A stretch of DNA of 6,062 nucleotides from a virus. The notes beneath the pieces are model-generated. The model searched no databases. It saw nothing but the letters and a program-made list of their open reading frames with translations, and was not told the origin of the DNA. Position numbers and translations under genes: made by a program. The stretch is from positions 1-6,062 of IMG/VR virus record IMGVR_UViG_3300020029_000021. The stretch is one strand, 5' to 3'. The first letter of the stretch is position 1. The number at the start of each line of letters is the position of its first letter. This document shows positions 1-6,062 of the stretch, in pieces.

Positions 1-121
1 CCTCGTCGTAAGAGGCTCGAAATTCGTTAAAACACGGCTCGTAAGCCACAGTTTCCGTGGCCGAGGTTGTTCCGAATCCAAATTGAAATCCAGGAACGTC
101 CTGGTATCCAATGTCGTTGTA
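1..121. repeat. Terminal direct repeat, copy 1. It is identical to 5942..6062 and is the overlap left by assembling a circular genome.
   Basis: Base-by-base comparison shows 1..121 equals 5942..6062 (offset 5941). The minus-strand capsid reading frame continues without interruption across the implied junction. Confidence 0.97.
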
Positions 122-1546: not shown

Positions 1547-2617
1547 TTAAATGTTTAGTTGAAGTTTATAATGTTCTCGCCAAAACTGGAGAATGTCCAA
1601 ATCCAACCAAGTAGGGGGATCAAAGTCGGGCATTTTCCGGGAAGAGGAAGAGAAGCGCATTATTTGCTTTTGCTCCCACGTGTATGACGCTCTACGGGAT
1701 ACGGCGGAATTGAGATTGAACCGCTCAACACACAAAGACACAATACGCTTAACCAAAGGAGACTTGCTAAAACGTGCATAAGCGTCAGCAGCGGTAATCG
1801 AGCGTACCACCTCATCCTCCGATTTAAGGTACTTAAGGTAATATCGAGGAATCGCGTATTTATAATTGATATCCTTCTCACTATCATAATAAGACCACGA
1901 CGAAACGCGAGCAGAAGGACGAGGCATATAGCCAAGAAAATCACCAACGCCAGCAGATACGAATTTTCGCGTATAGCGGCGATGCTGGAGGAGGCAAGAT
2001 AAAGGTGTAAGATTTCCATCTACGGTAACATGTTTATCCGAGATTTCCTCGGGATTAAATTGAATCTGTTTAGTAACATACTTTACGCAATAGCGAGCGC
2101 GTTTGTGGGTGGCCTTCGCGAGCCACACAAAGCCAAGGTCTCGAACGGCAGAGCGAATAGTGTTATAGAGAACATTTGTGCCAAACAGAAAACCATGGAA
2201 ATGTAATCGAGGCTCATTTCCTGTCTCCGGGTGAGTGCCGAACTCCTGGAAAAAGGCATGCTTGAACGAATGGCCGAGTTTATGCCGCAAGCGCTCATTG
2301 AAGCGGCGGATGAATCGGGAGGGGTCGAGCAAGGCTTCATTATAATACTTCGGAGCAATAGTTATTGTAATAAAAATAGCCTGCTGATCATTAGCCTTGC
2401 AGTAGGCGAGCTCACGCTCTAGCCTAACAAACCAACTATTACGCTGACGACGCAAGCAGTCTTCACACTTTCCGCAGGGGACCATCAGCCACTGGCGAGC
2501 GACATCCCAGGGTCGAAGAGCTAAAGCCGACTTAGCGACATCAGAACCACTTCGGCAAGGATTTTTCTTGTCGAAATAACGGCGGTTGCGAATCCATATG
2601 GGAGACGAACAAGGCAT
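1547..2617 (-). CDS. VP4: Replication initiation protein VP4 (rolling-circle HUH endonuclease, phage gpA family), 356 aa from the ATG at 2617.
   Basis: The N-terminus MPCSSPIWIRN is typical of microvirus Rep proteins. It has a CxxCxxC element (PCGKCEDCLRRQRNSW), motif 1 (AIFITITIAP), the HUH motif (RLHFHGFLFG) and a double-tyrosine motif (YCVKYVTK, compare phiX174 A YVAKYVNK). The track start at 2638 is a TTG. The ATG at 2617 overlaps the upstream ORF stop as TAATG. The stop lies 3 nt before the VP1 ATG. Confidence 0.93.
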   Translation of the reverse strand: MPCSSPIWIRNRRYFDKKNPCRSGSDVAKSALALRPWDVARQWLMVPCGKCEDCLRRQRNSWFVRLERELAYCKANDQQAIFITITIAPKYYNEALLDPSRFIRRFNERLRHKLGHSFKHAFFQEFGTHPETGNEPRLHFHGFLFGTNVLYNTIRSAVRDLGFVWLAKATHKRARYCVKYVTKQIQFNPEEISDKHVTVDGNLTPLSCLLQHRRYTRKFVSAGVGDFLGYMPRPSARVSSWSYYDSEKDINYKYAIPRYYLKYLKSEDEVVRSITAADAYARFSKSPLVKRIVSLCVERFNLNSAVSRRASYTWEQKQIMRFSSSSRKMPDFDPPTWLDLDILQFWREHYKLQLNI

Positions 2618-3053: not shown

Positions 3054-3377
3054 TTAGTTCCCTTTCCCTTCTTCCTGCGACGTGCCTTCATCGGGAGTCA
3101 AATCAAAGTCAAACATAAGAACAAATGTATTGTCGAAAAACTCGACATCAAAATTTGGATACGTGCTCAAGGCGCCCATGAGGCCCGAAACAGAACGATG
3201 CTCAATATAGGGAGAATCAGCAATACTGGAATGCTCAACATAGGTAGAAATGGGGGTACGCTTAAGAGCATCAAGAGAGAGCGCCGAGAACTGTCCATTT
3301 TCAATGTAGCCTACCTGGACAAGATCAATCTTAAAGGCAGGATTAATGCGACGAATAACAACATGAATCTGTGTCAT
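3054..3377 (-). CDS. Hypothetical acidic protein of 107 aa from the ATG at 3377.
   Basis: The product is MTQIHVVIRRINPAFKIDLVQVGYIENGQFSALSLDALKRTPISTYVEHSSIADSPYIEHRSVSGLMGALSTYPNFDVEFFDNTFVLMFDFDLTPDEGTSQEEGKGN. I count about 15 D/E against 7 K/R. The ATG lies 16 nt after the ORF104 stop. The longer track start at 3491 is a GTG and would overlap ORF104 by about 100 nt. A strong terminator follows. I recognise no family. Confidence 0.7.
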   Translation of the reverse strand: MTQIHVVIRRINPAFKIDLVQVGYIENGQFSALSLDALKRTPISTYVEHSSIADSPYIEHRSVSGLMGALSTYPNFDVEFFDNTFVLMFDFDLTPDEGTSQEEGKGN

Positions 3378-3393: not shown

Positions 3394-3708
3394 TTAAAAG
3401 CGAAAAAAGTATTTACAAAAATCTGACCAGCGCCGAGATGCGTCACACCAGAATTCACGACCTTCGGGGGTTGATTCGAAAAGGAATGCACCAGTCATAA
3501 GAAAAGAATAATCGGTAACGGGAAATGCTGCATAAGTACGAATGCGAAGCCGAATGTAGCTGCGAGCAGACATAGTAGTGTGTCTGTCCGCCACGAGATT
3601 CTTCGCGAATCTACGATAAAGACGATTTCGAATAAGCCACTCAACGAAAAGGTAGTCTAAAGCATCAACTCGTAAATCAAACTGACTAAAAGATTTTTGT
3701 GCTTTCAT
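3394..3708 (-). CDS. Hypothetical basic protein of 104 aa.
   Basis: The product starts at an ATG and reads MKAQKSFSQFDLRVDALDYLFVEWLIRNRLYRRFAKNLVADRHTTMSARSYIRLRIRTYAAFPVTDYSFLMTGAFLFESTPEGREFWCDASRRWSDFCKYFFRF. I count about 18 K/R against 11 D/E. The C-terminal F-x-F-x-x-TPEG-x-x-FW-x(6)-W pattern looks like something I have seen in small uncharacterised phage proteins, but I cannot name a family. It is the first gene after candidate promoter P1. Confidence 0.75.
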   Translation of the reverse strand: MKAQKSFSQFDLRVDALDYLFVEWLIRNRLYRRFAKNLVADRHTTMSARSYIRLRIRTYAAFPVTDYSFLMTGAFLFESTPEGREFWCDASRRWSDFCKYFFRF

Positions 3709-3788: not shown

Positions 3789-5057
3789 TTAATTTCTCCC
3801 ACGATAGGTGCGGCGGGCATAGGTAGCACCTTCTCTGTCGCCGTTAGGTCCGTAAAACTCCCTCAACTCTTCGTAACCTTCGGGTCCGGCAGGACCTGCG
3901 GCCTTGCGACCAACATAGGAAGCACCGGCAACGCCTGCGGCAGTAGCAAAGGACCGAATAATGTCATGAGCAAGACGAAGGCGAGAATTACGCAAATCCC
4001 AGCGAGCATTCCCAGTCTCAAGTTGAGCAGCTTCAGCAGCAGCAGACTTCAAAATAGCCGTAGTTTCGGCAACTTTCATCATCTTCGTCTCAACGACCTC
4101 ACCTTTATCATTGCGAATCTGAACAGGAACTTCCTTCTCCCAGTTGAGTTCATACCAATTCTGCAAATCCTTGAGTTCTTGATAGTTAAGTTTCGTACGA
4201 GACTTGGACTCAGCAGCGGCGGAAACGTTGGCGATAGCCGAAGACCAGGCAACAGCGAGGGCAGCTCCAGCTTGAGGCTCAAACCAATCATTCACCATAC
4301 GAATATTCTGATATTTTTCCTCCAGAATGCCAGCCATAGCCATAATAGAAGACATTTTGTAACCTTGAGTAATATTGGCTAAATAAGCGTCAATCGCCAC
4401 AATCTGAGCCTGCGCTTCATGAAGGTTGGCGAGCTCACGGGCATCTTTGACATTATGCTGCGCAATCTGTAATTCAAGATTATCCATTTTCTCTCGCCAC
4501 TCTTGCGTATGAGTGTTACCACGAAGATTTTCTGCTTCCGCATCATCTCGGTTAGCGGCAGCAGTATTGCGGTCAACCGTGGACCGAGCAACCATATTCT
4601 GCGCGATAGCGGCGGGGTCACCGGGGACGAAAGCACCAGGGCTAACTGGAGAACCGCCGGAAGGGCCGGAAGCGGAGGGCATGCCTGCAGAACCGCCAGA
4701 CATAGTAGCGTTGATACCAACACCCGAAGAGCCTAAAACAGCAGCAGGGGTTACGCCAGCCTTCAAATAACGGTCAAAGACCTTTGAGGGATCATTATAT
4801 GAATTTTCATAATCAAACTGCTTTTGCCAATTAGTATAAGAAAGCTCAGACTGTCTCTGCATCTGCTCCAAAGCATATTTCTGCTGAAGAGCCATCTGCT
4901 TCTGCTGAAAACGCCATTGGCGACGAGCGTTCATGCCGCCAAAAAGCTGGCCTAAAAAGCCATTAATCAGGCCGGTAGTGCCGGTAGAGGCGGCAGATTC
5001 TCCAAGGGCGCGGCCGAAAGAGGCAGCACCGGCGGCTGCAATAACAGGGGCGGGCAT
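3789..5057 (-). CDS. VP2: Minor capsid / DNA pilot protein VP2-like, 422 aa.
   Basis: It has a Gly/Ala-rich hydrophobic N-terminus (MPAPVIAAAGAASFGRALGE...GLINGFLGQLFGG) and a Q-rich helix (RRQWRFQQKQMALQQKYALEQMQRQ). FDRYLKAGVTPAAVLG resembles the AGLNP..L motif I recall in microvirus pilot proteins. It also has a Gly/Ser/Pro-rich linker and a long helical, coiled-coil-like centre (REKMDNLELQIAQHNVKDARELANLHEAQAQIVAIDAYLANI). Its size and gene context fit VP2. Confidence 0.85.
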   Translation of the reverse strand: MPAPVIAAAGAASFGRALGESAASTGTTGLINGFLGQLFGGMNARRQWRFQQKQMALQQKYALEQMQRQSELSYTNWQKQFDYENSYNDPSKVFDRYLKAGVTPAAVLGSSGVGINATMSGGSAGMPSASGPSGGSPVSPGAFVPGDPAAIAQNMVARSTVDRNTAAANRDDAEAENLRGNTHTQEWREKMDNLELQIAQHNVKDARELANLHEAQAQIVAIDAYLANITQGYKMSSIMAMAGILEEKYQNIRMVNDWFEPQAGAALAVAWSSAIANVSAAAESKSRTKLNYQELKDLQNWYELNWEKEVPVQIRNDKGEVVETKMMKVAETTAILKSAAAEAAQLETGNARWDLRNSRLRLAHDIIRSFATAAGVAGASYVGRKAAGPAGPEGYEELREFYGPNGDREGATYARRTYRGRN

Positions 5058-5058
5058 G

Positions 5059-5250
5059 CTACATATTAGTTAAATTGTTAGAGCGAATAATGTAATCGAC
5101 ACGCACTGTATCGACGTGAACACCGCTACGCTGCATTCGTGCTTGAGCAGAACAAGATGAAAGAAAGAAAGCGGCCAAAGCAGCAACGATAGACGAAACG
5201 AGTGTCCAAAACGCTTTCGACTTATAAAAGGGTTGTTTAGTATCAGACAT
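5059..5250 (-). CDS. Small predicted lipoprotein of 63 aa (31-aa mature peptide). It is a candidate lysis or receptor-masking/superinfection-exclusion protein.
   Basis: From the ATG at 5250 the product is MSDTKQPFYKSKAFWTLVSSIVAALAAFFLSSCSAQARMQRSGVHVDTVRVDYIIRSNNLTNM. It has a Lys-containing n-region, a hydrophobic h-region, and the lipobox L-S-S-C. The TAG stop is 1 nt from the VP2 ATG (ATGTAGCATG). The longer track start at 5355 is a GTG and would read through the intergenic hairpin. Confidence 0.7.
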   Translation of the reverse strand: MSDTKQPFYKSKAFWTLVSSIVAALAAFFLSSCSAQARMQRSGVHVDTVRVDYIIRSNNLTNM

Positions 5251-5281
5251 AGGGATAAAATTTAAAGAACGATAGAAAAAT

Positions 5282-5353
5282 GCGCGGCCTCTCCTGCAGT
5301 CGCTACCAATAACCTTCAGCAATTCACGAACTCTTGCAGAAAGGGGTCCGCGC
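5282..5353 (-). other. Long imperfect hairpin in the ORF98/lipoprotein intergenic region. It may be a leaky terminator or an ssDNA structural element.
   Basis: GCGCGG(5282..5287) pairs with CCGCGC(5348..5353). CC(5288..5289) pairs with GG(5345..5346) across a 1-nt bulge. CTGCAG(5294..5299) pairs with TTGCAG(5334..5339), with one G-T pair. The loop is about 34 nt. On the minus strand the hairpin is followed by ATTTTTCT. Confidence 0.45.
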
Positions 5354-5384
5354 ACGTAGCATATATCGTCAAGTAAAGGATATA

Positions 5385-5681
5385 CTATTTTTCTTCAGAA
5401 TTGGAAGATTTAGAAGTAGGCCTCGACCTATCCAACTCTGAATCAATAAGTTCCTGACCAACCTCGAGGCCATCAAACTTATCCATACGAGAGAAAGAAT
5501 TAGGGTCAAAGTCAATCTCAGGGTTAAACTTTTCGCCCTTATCGAAGTCAGACGAGGACGCCTCGACGTCCGGACGACCAGGGAGAACGTCAACGGAACC
5601 AGAACCATCGAGAACAGAAAGAATACGCTGACCGCGAGAAACATAGGCGGGGGCGTCCTCAAGAAGCCATTCAAGTGCCAT
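5385..5681 (-). CDS. Hypothetical strongly acidic protein of 98 aa. It is a possible scaffolding-type protein, suggested by position and composition only.
   Basis: The ATG at 5681 lies 12 nt after the VP1 stop. The product is MALEWLLEDAPAYVSRGQRILSVLDGSGSVDVLPGRPDVEASSSDFDKGEKFNPEIDFDPNSFSRMDKFDGLEVGQELIDSELDRSRPTSKSSNSEEK. It is rich in D/E and looks largely disordered. I recognise no family. Confidence 0.7.
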   Translation of the reverse strand: MALEWLLEDAPAYVSRGQRILSVLDGSGSVDVLPGRPDVEASSSDFDKGEKFNPEIDFDPNSFSRMDKFDGLEVGQELIDSELDRSRPTSKSSNSEEK

Positions 5682-5693
5682 AAAATCAATGTA

Positions 5694-6062
5694 TTAACGA
5701 TTAGACAAACGGGTTGCAAAAGTTTTATTTACCAGATTCTTCTTCTGAACGGAATACGAAAGGTTAATGAAAAAATTGTCTTCCCTCTTAGAGAAAAACG
5801 GCGAGTTAACCTGGTCAATATCCACAAACAGGAGAGAGTAGTACTGGTTATAGCTCGCAGACAAAACGCGCTGCTGGACCCAATAAGAGTAAAGGGGTAC
5901 AGCGCTGTCGGAAACCTGGAACCGAGACAACTGACCCATGACCTCGTCGTAAGAGGCTCGAAATTCGTTAAAACACGGCTCGTAAGCCACAGTTTCCGTG
6001 GCCGAGGTTGTTCCGAATCCAAATTGAAATCCAGGAACGTCCTGGTATCCAATGTCGTTGTA
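5694..6062 (-). CDS. VP1: Major capsid protein VP1, 3' portion. 5694..5941 holds the unique C-terminal codons and stop. 5942..6062 duplicates 1..121.
   Basis: It is in the same frame as 1..1543 after the 5941-nt offset. The junction codon GTC (positions 1/5941/5940) gives ...SYDEVMGQLSRFQVSDSAVPLYSYWVQQRVLSASYNQYYSLLFVDIDQVNSPFFSKREDNFFINLSYSVQKKNLVNKTFATRLSNR followed by a stop (TAA at 5696..5694). The M at 5990 in the ORF track is an internal GTG (Val). Confidence 0.95.
   Translation of the reverse strand, partial: YNDIGYQDVPGFQFGFGTTSATETVAYEPCFNEFRASYDEVMGQLSRFQVSDSAVPLYSYWVQQRVLSASYNQYYSLLFVDIDQVNSPFFSKREDNFFINLSYSVQKKNLVNKTFATRLSNR
5942..6062. repeat. Terminal direct repeat, copy 2 (identical to 1..121).
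   Basis: It is an exact 121-nt match to the window start. Confidence 0.97.

What the first reader, a model, noticed from the sequence alone, without database searches (positions are those of the whole stretch)
5059..5250. A 63-aa lipoprotein gene abutting VP2 is a candidate lysis or receptor-masking factor
The ORF has a textbook signal peptidase II signal: a Lys-rich n-region, a hydrophobic core WTLVSSIVAALAAFFL, and the lipobox LSS-C. The mature peptide is only 31 aa (CSAQARMQRSGVHVDTVRVDYIIRSNNLTNM). The residues after the Cys are not acidic, so it lacks the Bacteroidota surface-export signal and probably faces the periplasm. The lysis genes of non-phiX microviruses are largely unknown. phiX174 E is a small membrane protein. 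Small phage lipoproteins have known roles as o-spanins (Rz1) and as receptor blockers (T5 Llp, Cor). Its stop is 1 nt from the VP2 start, so it is co-expressed with a structural gene.
Basis: partly seen in the sequence, partly recalled or inferred. Interest (0 to 1): 0.7.

Follow-up and report, generated by a model that had tools for sequence, protein, structure and literature searches.

The report
Conserved small lipoprotein gene in gut microviruses
A tiny single-stranded-DNA gut phage carries a real, strongly conserved 63-residue lipoprotein gene fused end-to-end to its DNA-delivery ("pilot") gene; it probably acts at the host cell envelope, most likely by blocking entry of rival phages rather than by lysing the cell, but its function is untested.

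Summary
Window 5059-5250 (minus strand) encodes a 63-aa protein with a Lys-rich N-terminus, a hydrophobic core, the lipobox LSS-C and a 31-aa mature peptide. Its stop lies 1 nt from the VP2 start.

It is a real gene. It has 96 distinct nucleotide versions with dN/dS 0.07. It occurs in every complete relative and in about 774 protein clusters, all on microvirus-sized contigs. The Cys and the small -1 residue are nearly invariant. No known family matches.

The 98-100-aa gene calls are artefacts. They read into a conserved, structured non-coding element.

Function is inferred only.
- The signal part is constant, whereas the mature peptide comes in discrete types.
- Those types are inherited together with the N-terminal half of VP2. 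The rest of the genome shows almost no linkage.
- The mature peptide is periplasmic, so it could meet VP2 only when VP2 arrives from outside. I therefore favour type-specific entry exclusion (about 0.4) over lysis (about 0.3).
- A previously unannotated 119-aa two-TMD ORF overprinted in Rep shows a clear dual-coding signature. It is a rival lysis candidate.

The host is not established. Absence of Shine-Dalgarno motifs is consistent with Bacteroidota.

The parts
5059..5250 (-). Lipoprotein gene (63 codons plus TAG stop). This short form is the true gene.
   Evidence: ORF. dN/dS 0.07 over 96 distinct versions. Present in 113/113 complete relatives. 774 clusters at 90% identity.
5215..5250 (-). 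n-region, MSDTKQPFYKSK (three Lys). Predicted cytoplasmic side.
   Evidence: dN/dS 0.026 in subtype A. K12 is invariant in alignment A3.
5164..5214 (-). Hydrophobic core, AFWTLVSSIVAALAAFF. It includes the family-invariant FWTL, A24 and F29.
   Evidence: Invariant columns. dN/dS 0.056 with pS 0.56, so the constraint is on the protein and not the DNA. AF2 models a helix here with pLDDT about 90.
5152..5163 (-). Lipobox L-S-S-C. Cys33 is the predicted lipidation site and the first mature residue.
   Evidence: Cys sits at a fixed offset in 340/351 members. Position -1 is S/G/A in 343/351. 328/354 pass the PROSITE-type rule.
5062..5154 (-). Mature 31-aa peptide, CSAQARMQRSGVHVDTVRVDYIIRSNNLTNM (type A1). 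The core GVHxDTVRVDYIIRS alternates hydrophobic and polar residues, which suggests a beta strand. No acidic residue follows the Cys.
   Evidence: Core dN/dS 0.03. Discrete types A1, A2, B, C and others. One LD block with VP2 codons 1-170.
3789..5057 (-). VP2 DNA pilot protein (422 aa). The start lies 1 nt after the lipoprotein stop. The N-terminal half (about codons 1-170, window about 4548-5057) co-varies with the lipoprotein mature type.
   Evidence: PHROG 8689 'pilot protein for DNA ejection', E 3.5e-6. Relatives are annotated as pilot protein or VP2. Clusters of VP2(1-170) at 80% identity match the lipoprotein type in 89/90 type-A genomes.
5254..5384 (-). Conserved structured non-coding element between the VP3-like gene and the lipoprotein gene. 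It sets the true 5' limit of the gene and may be an origin, a terminator or a 5' leader for the lip-VP2 message.
   Evidence: 86-89% DNA identity to otherwise divergent microviruses. Indels among relatives. 110 IMG/VR contigs share a 33-nt core. Covarying hairpin, GC-rich closing stem and T-run. No Rfam hit.
1660..2019 (-). ORF-X: a 119-aa ORF with two hydrophobic segments, overprinted in the +1 frame of the VP4/Rep gene. It is a rival or partner candidate for lysis and is not part of the lipoprotein gene.
   Evidence: ATG ORF in 89/89 complete genomes. Synonymous diversity of VP4 falls to 0.184 inside the overlap against 0.467 outside, p 6.5e-18. It is the only such region in VP1, VP2(N) and VP4. 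Conserved motifs. Found in 32 GenBank records.

Best explanation
The ORF is a genuine microvirus gene for a signal peptidase II-type prolipoprotein (about 0.85 that it is exported and lipidated in the native host).

Inferred pathway:
1. The 63-aa precursor is inserted post-translationally, with its Lys-rich N-terminus in the cytoplasm.
2. Cys33 is diacylglycerol-modified and the 32-residue signal is cut off.
3. This leaves a 31-residue lipopeptide on a periplasm-facing leaflet. It carries no acidic surface-export signal.

Proposed function (inference, about 0.4): type-specific entry exclusion.
- The short, probably beta-structured mature peptide binds one of two things. It binds either the incoming pilot protein VP2 of a later-arriving virion, or the envelope component that VP2 uses as its conduit.
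- DNA delivery by phages carrying the same VP2 type is thereby blocked. Progeny may also be spared from ejecting into debris or vesicles.
- The mature peptide and the N-terminal half of VP2 behave as one exchangeable specificity cassette. Several such types (A1, A2, B, C) co-circulate in one metagenome. This resembles the exclusion groups of conjugative elements.

The gene is read from the same message as VP2, with termination-reinitiation spacing of 1-2 nt.

Shown here: the gene is real; the lipobox conservation pattern; the allelic types; the linkage to VP2. Inferred: export, lipidation, topology, binding partner and phenotype.
For: - Real gene with lipobox-specific constraints.
- The signal part is conserved across types, while the mature part falls into discrete types, each under purifying selection.
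- Types A1, A2, B and C occur in the same IMG sample, 3300020029 (loci L014, L026, L008, L060).
- A1/A2 differentiation (Fst) is 0.02-0.06 across the VP1 C-terminus, the VP3-like gene, the non-coding element and the lipoprotein's own signal region. It rises sharply at the signal/mature junction to 0.2-0.47. It stays high to about VP2 codon 170, apart from a dip to 0.03-0.08 over about VP2 codons 77-116.
- Mean r2 between the mature region and VP2(1-170) is 0.128. It is 0.034 with the signal region, 0.016 with the upstream element and 0.017 with the VP1 C-terminal segment.
- Clusters of VP2(1-170) at 80% identity match the lipoprotein type in 89 of 90 type-A genomes.
- Topology argument (inference): a periplasmic peptide and a cytoplasmically assembled VP2 can meet only when VP2 comes in from outside.
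- Known stand-alone small lipoproteins without a spanin partner are exclusion factors. Examples are T5 Llp (PMC9586334), Ltp of TP-J34 (PMC3952083) and TrbK (NCBIfam name).
- In the one isolated Bacteroides microvirus, host-range escape mutations map to the capsid and pilot proteins (PMC13064476).
- A separate lysis candidate exists in ORF-X.
Against: - There is no sequence or structural similarity to any exclusion protein.
- A 31-aa mature peptide is half the size of Llp.
- The linkage with VP2 could be mere physical contiguity. No conserved sequence separates the two parts, so homologous recombination may simply be unable to split them.
- Type B lipoproteins occur with several VP2 N-half clusters. 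One of them (L005) looks close to type A over the first 110 residues of VP2.
- The very strong, sequence-specific conservation of the signal/TMD (FWTL...A...F) is not explained by an exclusion role. It fits a membrane-active or TMD-targeted (lysis-type) mechanism better.
- A gene present in every member of a clade with six to eight genes looks essential. Exclusion genes usually are not.
- Type B has Glu at -2 of the lipobox, which is atypical.
- AF2 gave no confident fold for the mature part.
Confidence: 0.4

Rival explanations
1. Lysis effector or lysis accessory. Two versions are possible. (a) It works like a colicin lysis protein (bacteriocin release protein): the small lipopeptide, together with a stable and functionally active signal peptide, accumulates in the envelope and destabilises it. 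(b) It works like phiX174 E: the conserved N-terminal transmembrane segment, cleaved or not, inhibits a membrane step of envelope synthesis. It could act alone or together with ORF-X.
For: - No endolysin or peptidase domain was found in any ORF of the genome.
- By contrast, the isolated Bacteroides microvirus phiHBP1 carries an M15 peptidase.
- It is the only non-overlapping ORF with a hydrophobic segment.
- It is universal in the clade. It also sits at other genome positions in other microvirus lineages, like a self-sufficient cassette.
- The signal/TMD is the best-conserved part, and the constraint is on the protein. This matches E, whose TMD is the active part (own knowledge). It also matches colicin lysis proteins. 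PMC2896534 describes them as 47-aa lipoproteins with a 19-aa signal peptide whose overexpression is lethal, and cites papers titled as showing that the signal peptide itself kills the cell.
- The mature length of 31 aa matches that class.
Against: - No match to Pfam Lysis_col or to any lysis family.
- Colicin lysis proteins permeabilise the envelope but do not breach peptidoglycan, which a 25-nm virion must cross (own knowledge).
- ORF-X is a more typical single-gene-lysis candidate: overprinted and membrane-embedded.
- The mature part has split into discrete types, each under purifying selection and each tied to a VP2 allele. This is not expected for an effector aimed at conserved host machinery.
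Confidence: 0.3
2. Another envelope function unrelated to exclusion or lysis. Possibilities include titrating or perturbing the host lipoprotein-processing or sorting pathway, modulating vesiculation or cell-surface phase state to favour release, or serving mainly as an upstream 'leader' cistron that sets the translation level of VP2 by coupling.
For: - The 1-2 nt stop-start spacing is invariant.
- A structured element with a T-run sits directly upstream. It could attenuate transcription into lip-VP2.
- Type B carries an atypical Glu at -2, which might slow processing.
- Long read-through forms of 190-220 aa exist in another lineage, which shows that the C-terminus tolerates large changes.
Against: - A pure leader cistron would not show dN/dS of 0.03-0.09 along its whole length, nor an invariant lipobox.
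- In other lineages the gene is not next to VP2.
- No data point to any specific alternative target.
Confidence: 0.15
3. Not lipidated. The protein stays as an uncleaved N-in/C-out single-pass membrane protein, and the Cys serves another purpose.
For: - Type B has Glu at -2, and 23 of 354 members fail the PROSITE-type rule.
- No dedicated predictor could be run.
- The host, and therefore its lipobox preference, is unknown.
Against: The Cys is essentially invariant at a fixed distance from the start of the hydrophobic core. Position -1 is restricted to S/G/A in 343 of 351 members. These are exactly the constraints of a signal peptidase II site. The only weak profile hits are to the signal regions of lipoprotein families. 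An nr record already names a member 'lipoprotein'.
Confidence: 0.12

Closest known systems
T5 Llp and Cor-type superinfection-exclusion lipoproteins of tailed coliphages
   Same: A small phage-encoded lipoprotein with no spanin partner, facing the periplasm. It is encoded next to a gene of the entry apparatus and varies together with that gene. [quoted passage not shown]
   Different: No sequence similarity. The mature peptide is about half as long. The phage is a tailless ssDNA microvirus. Covariation is with the pilot (DNA-conduit) protein and not with the capsid or receptor-binding protein. The target is unknown.
Ltp of Streptococcus phage TP-J34, and plasmid entry-exclusion lipoproteins such as TrbK of RP4
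   Same: Lipoproteins that block incoming DNA after adsorption. Ltp is the prototype of a family of exclusion lipoproteins (PMC3952083), and its target is the tape-measure protein, the DNA conduit (own knowledge). Exclusion systems of conjugative elements form specificity groups in which the exclusion protein and its target co-vary (own knowledge). The lipoprotein/VP2 types mirror this pattern.
   Different: Ltp is much larger and comes from a Gram-positive temperate phage. The TrbK model matches only the signal region, and far below its cutoff (11.9 bits against 23). No exclusion phenotype has been shown here.
Colicin lysis proteins (bacteriocin release proteins, Pfam Lysis_col)
   Same: The same design: a precursor of about 45-63 aa, a mature lipopeptide of about 28-33 aa, and a signal peptide that is itself conserved and biologically active. 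Expression is lethal or lytic (PMC2896534).
   Different: No Pfam match. Encoded by a phage rather than a colicin operon. Those proteins act through outer-membrane phospholipase A in enterobacteria, and no such link is known here.
phiX174 E (single-gene lysis protein) and K
   Same: A small membrane-targeted protein of a microvirus whose transmembrane segment is its best-conserved part.
   Different: E and K are overprinted inside other genes and have no lipobox. This gene stands alone. The E/K-like element in this genome is ORF-X inside Rep.
o-spanins (lambda Rz1) and unimolecular spanins (T1 gp11)
   Same: A small phage lipoprotein with a short mature part.
   Different: No i-spanin partner, no holin or endolysin, no C-terminal TMD, and no Pro or second Cys in the mature peptide.

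Membership tests
Bacterial prolipoprotein (signal peptidase II substrate) | A positively charged n-region followed by an uninterrupted hydrophobic core | tested here: met
   K5, K10 and K12 are followed by a 17-residue uncharged core. K12 and FWTL are invariant in the family.
Bacterial prolipoprotein (signal peptidase II substrate) | Lipobox [LVI][ASTVI][GAS]-C, with Cys at position 15-35 | tested here: met
   LSSC with Cys33. 328/354 members pass the PROSITE-type rule and -1 is S/G/A in 343/351. Type B has Glu at -2, which is atypical.
Bacterial prolipoprotein (signal peptidase II substrate) | Actual lipidation and globomycin-sensitive cleavage | not testable with these tools
   Needs labelling or a mobility shift in a host. 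SignalP and LipoP were not available.
Bacteroidota surface-exposed lipoprotein | An acidic lipoprotein export signal directly after the Cys | tested here: not met
   There is no D or E at +2 to +5 in 350/351 members. The definition of the signal is from my own knowledge.
o-spanin (Rz1-like) | A cognate i-spanin gene that is embedded, overlapping or adjacent | tested here: not met
   The neighbours are the acidic VP3-like protein and VP2. No type II membrane protein with a long periplasmic domain exists among the conserved ORFs.
o-spanin (Rz1-like) | A holin-endolysin lysis cassette in the genome | tested here: not met
   No muralytic domain was found in any ORF.
Unimolecular spanin (T1 gp11-like) | An N-terminal lipobox plus a C-terminal transmembrane domain | tested here: not met
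   The mature peptide is 31 polar or amphipathic residues with no second hydrophobic segment.
Colicin lysis protein (Pfam Lysis_col) | Sequence membership in the family | tested here: not met
   No Pfam-A hit at E up to 1.
Colicin lysis protein (Pfam Lysis_col) | A small lipoprotein with a mature part of about 28-33 aa and a conserved signal peptide | tested here: met
   31 aa mature. The signal is more conserved than the mature part. The class description is from PMC2896534.
Llp/Cor/Ltp/TrbK-type exclusion lipoproteins | Sequence or fold similarity to a known member | tested here: not met
   Nothing in Pfam, PHROGs, NCBIfam, PADLOC or PDB sequences above noise. TrbK scored 11.9 bits against a cutoff of 23, over the signal region only.
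Llp/Cor/Ltp/TrbK-type exclusion lipoproteins | Genetic linkage and covariation with the phage's own entry protein | tested here: met
   The gene abuts VP2. The mature type matches the VP2(1-170) cluster in 89/90 type-A genomes. r2 is 0.128 against about 0.02 elsewhere. Simple contiguity cannot be excluded as the cause.
Llp/Cor/Ltp/TrbK-type exclusion lipoproteins | Expression blocks infection by the cognate phage | not testable with these tools
   Needs a cultured host and a resurrected phage.
phiX174 E-type single-gene lysis protein | Overprinted in another gene, an uncleaved N-terminal TMD, lysis on expression | tested here: not met
   The gene stands alone with normal synonymous diversity (pS 0.62), and it has a lipobox. 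The lysis phenotype is not testable here.

The most novel reading that the evidence does not exclude
Gut microviruses carry exclusion groups. A roughly 30-residue periplasmic lipopeptide and the N-terminal half of the pilot protein form matched specificity alleles. A cell infected by one type shuts out virions with the same pilot type but still admits other types. This would maintain several cassette types by frequency-dependent selection. It would also help explain why these genomes recombine so freely everywhere else. It would be the first dedicated superinfection-exclusion gene known in Microviridae, and a phage counterpart of plasmid entry-exclusion systems. An even more unusual variant remains open: the conserved signal peptide could itself be the active agent, for example by jamming lipoprotein processing.
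Probability: 0.3. Interest if true: 0.75.

Novelty: new variant of a known kind. Interest (0 to 1): 0.55.

Why it matters
Microviruses are among the most abundant phages of animal guts. Outside the phiX174 group, neither their lysis genes nor any superinfection-exclusion gene is known.

This family is large: about 774 clusters at 90% identity and 73 at 50%. It is found only on microvirus-sized contigs and is frequently left unannotated or mis-called in GenBank. It is also small enough to synthesise and test directly.

If it is an exclusion factor matched to the pilot protein, it would show how the pilot protein meets the envelope. It would also show how co-circulating microviruses compete and recombine. 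If it is a lysis factor, it would give a new lipoprotein-based route to lysis.

The analysis also supplies two further testable elements in the same genome: an overprinted two-TMD gene in Rep and a structured, ultra-conserved intergenic element.

Tried and rejected
- Host or prophage search. The 33-nt core of the conserved element gave 0 hits in 185,579 species genomes. VP1 back-translated patterns gave no confirmed relative. The host therefore remains unknown.
- Larger genomic context. All family members sit on contigs of about 6 kb or less. The two 12-kb contigs are head-to-tail dimers of the genome, not prophages.
- Homology. Pfam, PHROGs, NCBIfam, PADLOC and PDB sequences gave nothing above noise for the lipoprotein, ORF-X or the other small ORFs.
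- Rfam. No hit anywhere in the window.
- Promoter and terminator scan around the gene. Nothing useful.
- AlphaFold2 on a 28-sequence alignment. The TM helix is confident. The mature part has pLDDT 52-65 and is modelled as a continuation of the helix, so it is uninformative. I ran no fold search on it.
- Literature. No paper in the library combines 'lipobox' with microvirus terms. The microvirus diversity and isolation papers I checked do not mention this gene.
- The 98-100-aa version of the gene was rejected.
- The o-spanin and u-spanin readings were rejected on missing defining features.
- I guessed that the conserved C-terminal motif of the long forms is a Shine-Dalgarno site for Rep. This was checked and not supported in L122.

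Full report
**What the window is.** The 6062-nt window has a 121-nt direct terminal repeat, so it is a circular genome of 5941 nt. All genes lie on the minus strand.
- VP4/Rep is at 1547-2638 (Pfam REP_ORF2-G2P and PHROG 942).
- The 596-aa major capsid protein VP1 runs across the ends of the window. Its homologue on a related contig carries Pfam Phage_F.
- An acidic 98-aa VP3-like gene is at 5385-5681.
- The ORF in question is at 5059-5250.
- The pilot protein VP2 is at 3789-5057 (PHROG 8689).
- Three small conserved ORFs of unknown function follow.

The nearest GenBank relatives are uncultured Microviridae from pig, deer, civet, lemur, rodent, tortoise, dog and bird faeces.

**Checking the observation.** The ORF, its sequence, the lipobox LSSC (5152-5163), the 31-residue mature peptide and the 1-nt gap to the VP2 ATG are all as described.
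- The protein satisfies a PROSITE PS51257-type lipoprotein rule. It is the only ATG-initiated ORF in the genome that does. Shuffled genomes give one such ORF in about 12% of cases. A single occurrence would therefore be only weak evidence.
- The strong evidence is comparative. A 33-nt core of the conserved element just upstream retrieved 110 IMG/VR microvirus contigs. In all 113 loci where the region is intact, a 61-65-aa ORF with the same architecture follows. The four exceptions are cut by contig ends or are rearranged at contig ends.
- Subtype A has 96 distinct nucleotide versions with pS 0.62, pN 0.086 and dN/dS 0.07. Nucleotide diversity is concentrated at third codon positions.
- Database searches found 774 clusters at 90% identity and 73 at 50% identity. 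All lie on contigs of microvirus size. The two 12-kb contigs are genome dimers.
- One nr entry already carries the automatic name 'lipoprotein [Microviridae sp.]'. Many GenBank records leave the gene unannotated or merge it into a mis-framed VP2.

**The true start of the gene.** About half of the database entries, and the GTG-start ORF listed for the window (5059-5355), extend the protein to 98-100 aa. That extension is not coding.
- The region is 86-89% identical at the DNA level even to microviruses that otherwise barely align.
- It has single-base indels between relatives.
- Its distance to the ATG ranges from 119 to 316 nt.
- It folds into a structure with compensatory base changes.

The 63-aa form is the gene.

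**Is it a lipoprotein?**
- Across 354 distinct members, the Cys lies exactly 19 residues after the F of an invariant FWTL motif in 340 of the 351 that have the Cys.
- The residue before it is S, G or A in 343 of 351.
- Position -3 is mostly L, V, T or A.
- 328 of 354 pass the PROSITE-type rule.
- Only one member has an acidic residue in the four positions after the Cys.

These are the constraints expected of a signal peptidase II site. They argue that the protein is lipidated and is not surface-exported by the Bacteroidota route. One subtype (B) has Glu at -2, which is atypical. Dedicated predictors and biochemistry were not available, so I put lipidation at about 0.85.

**Host.** I could not establish it. 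No prophage or genome match was found. None of the seven gene starts examined has a Shine-Dalgarno motif, and their upstream regions are A/T-rich. That is consistent with Bacteroidota but is not proof.

**Anatomy and evolution of the family.**
- The signal part (K-x-FWTL...A...F...[SGA]-C) is nearly constant across all lineages. The constraint acts on the protein, because synonymous sites vary freely.
- The mature part falls into discrete types:
  - A1: ...ARMQRSGVHxDTVRVDYIIRSNNLTxx
  - A2: ...AKVxRxGVHIDTVRVDYIIRSNNFSLP
  - B: CTARHYVVQSASSIKSGDTTRTTITYEQIGNFKRP
  - C: CATSHRVQQTATSFSGKDSIVMTITYDSRGNIKKL
  - Further variants occur in other microvirus lineages.
- The purifying selection is measured for subtypes A and B (mature core dN/dS 0.03 in A).
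- All four types occur in one IMG sample.
- In more distant microviruses the gene sits after the pilot gene or directly after the capsid gene. It therefore behaves as a movable cassette.
- In one lineage the stop codon is missing. There the ORF runs on for about 130 codons over a downstream gene in another frame.

**Linkage to the pilot protein.** I classified 80 complete type-A genomes as A1 or A2 and scanned differentiation along 3 kb.
- Fst is 0.02-0.06 across the VP1 C-terminus, the VP3-like gene, the non-coding element and the lipoprotein's own signal region.
- It jumps to 0.2-0.47 at the signal/mature junction. It stays high to about VP2 codon 170, with a dip to 0.03-0.08 over about VP2 codons 77-116.
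- Mean r2 between the mature region and VP2(1-170) is 0.128. That is as high as within either region. It compares with 0.034 for the signal region and about 0.016 for everything upstream.
- Clustering VP2(1-170) at 80% identity reproduces the lipoprotein type in 89 of 90 type-A genomes. VP2(1-170) identity is 0.87-0.90 within a type and 0.65 between types.
- In a 26-genome subset, VP1, VP4 and the VP3-like protein showed no such association.

So these genomes recombine almost freely, yet the mature lipopeptide and the N-terminal half of VP2 travel as one unit.

**A competing lysis candidate.** Among conserved ORFs, a 119-aa ATG ORF (window 1660-2019, +1 frame inside VP4) is open in 89 of 89 complete genomes. 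It has two strongly hydrophobic segments and a basic tail. Synonymous diversity of VP4 collapses exactly over this overlap, to 0.184 against 0.467 outside (p 6.5e-18). No comparable dip exists in VP1 or in the N-terminal part of VP2. This is the classic signature of an overprinted gene. In position and character it recalls phiX174 K and E. The ORF occurs in 32 GenBank microviruses, always inside the Rep annotation. The lipoprotein has a wider distribution than ORF-X, so the two are not obligatorily paired.

**Mechanism.** The shown facts fit a periplasm-facing lipopeptide acting on the envelope. I favour type-specific entry exclusion (about 0.4) for five reasons.
1. The variable, selected part is the mature peptide, and it varies in discrete, co-circulating types.
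2. Its type is tied to the pilot protein and to nothing else.
3. A periplasmic peptide can meet VP2, or VP2's docking site, only during entry of another virion.
4. Stand-alone small phage or plasmid lipoproteins without spanin partners are, where studied, exclusion factors: Llp, Ltp and TrbK.
5. The genome has another plausible lysis gene.

The main rival (about 0.3) is a lysis role of the colicin-lysis-protein or E type.
- The extreme conservation of the signal/TMD favours it.
- So does the gene's universality in a very small genome.
- So does the absence of any muralytic enzyme.
- So does the close match in design to colicin lysis proteins (PMC2896534).

The linkage evidence has a neutral explanation, which is contiguity without an intervening recombination-permissive stretch. 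It is therefore suggestive rather than decisive.

**Comparison with known systems and novelty.** The protein belongs to no described family. It fails the defining features of spanins. It resembles Llp, Ltp, TrbK and colicin lysis proteins in design only. No paper in the searchable library discusses a microvirus lipoprotein. I class it as a new variant of a known kind: small mobile-element lipoproteins acting at the envelope. It is found here in ssDNA microviruses, with function still open.

**Verdict.** Interest is moderate (0.55). It would be higher if the exclusion-group model or a lipoprotein-based lysis mechanism were demonstrated.

Noticed in passing
window 1660-2019 (minus strand), inside VP4/Rep 1547-2638: A 119-aa ORF is overprinted in the +1 frame of Rep. 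It has two hydrophobic segments and a basic C-terminal tail (MEILHLYL...HVLASLLW...PPYPVERHTRGSKSK). It is open with an ATG in 89/89 complete relatives. Rep's synonymous diversity drops from 0.47 to 0.18 exactly over the overlap (p 6.5e-18). It is unannotated in all 32 GenBank records that contain it. It is a candidate E/K-like membrane protein and possibly the lysis gene.
   Followed up: yes
window about 5254-5384 (minus strand): An ultra-conserved non-coding element of about 130 nt lies between the VP3-like gene and the lipoprotein gene. It is shared by 110 IMG/VR contigs and by otherwise divergent GenBank microviruses. It contains ACTTGACGATAT, which resembles the phiX174 viral-strand origin CAACTTG^ATATTAATAAC. 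It also has a covarying hairpin, a GC-rich closing stem and a T-run. It could be the origin, a terminator that lowers lip-VP2 expression, or both. No Rfam family matches.
   Followed up: partly
L122 3001-3576 and L123 3001-3630; proteins P0202-P0238: In another microvirus lineage (for example bajarodmic viruses 393 and 634) the lipoprotein ORF lacks its stop. It continues for about 130 codons over a downstream gene in a different frame. It ends just before Rep in a conserved basic motif, RRGGRRG..PK..IP(L/I)GG(S/R)HL, which looks like a phiX174 J-type DNA-binding tail. Long forms of about 160-220 aa make up about 30 of the 73 clusters at 50% identity. It is unresolved whether this is a true fusion or an in-frame small gene.
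   Followed up: partly
window 1-121 and 5942-6062: An exact 121-nt terminal direct repeat, meaning the contig is a circular genome of 5941 nt. VP1 spans the junction, which is why the ORF list does not show it.
   Followed up: yes
window 3394-3708, 3054-3377 and 2617-2817 (all minus strand): Three further small genes (104, 107 and 66 aa) are conserved in 87-88 of 89 complete relatives. None has a hit above threshold in Pfam, PHROGs or NCBIfam. None has a hydrophobic segment.
   Followed up: partly
whole genome, 80 related complete genomes: Linkage disequilibrium among co-occurring relatives is almost nil between regions (inter-region r2 about 0.016). Two blocks inside VP2 are the exception. 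This implies very frequent recombination, and hence frequent co-infection, in this microvirus population.
   Followed up: partly
GenBank relatives, for example MG945664, MG945509, MK765557, MT135342, MG945498 (L002, L004, L118, L125, L121): The lipoprotein gene is often missing from deposited annotations. In some records it is swallowed by a mis-framed 'VP2' feature. About half of the metagenomic gene calls use the spurious 100-aa start.
   Followed up: yes
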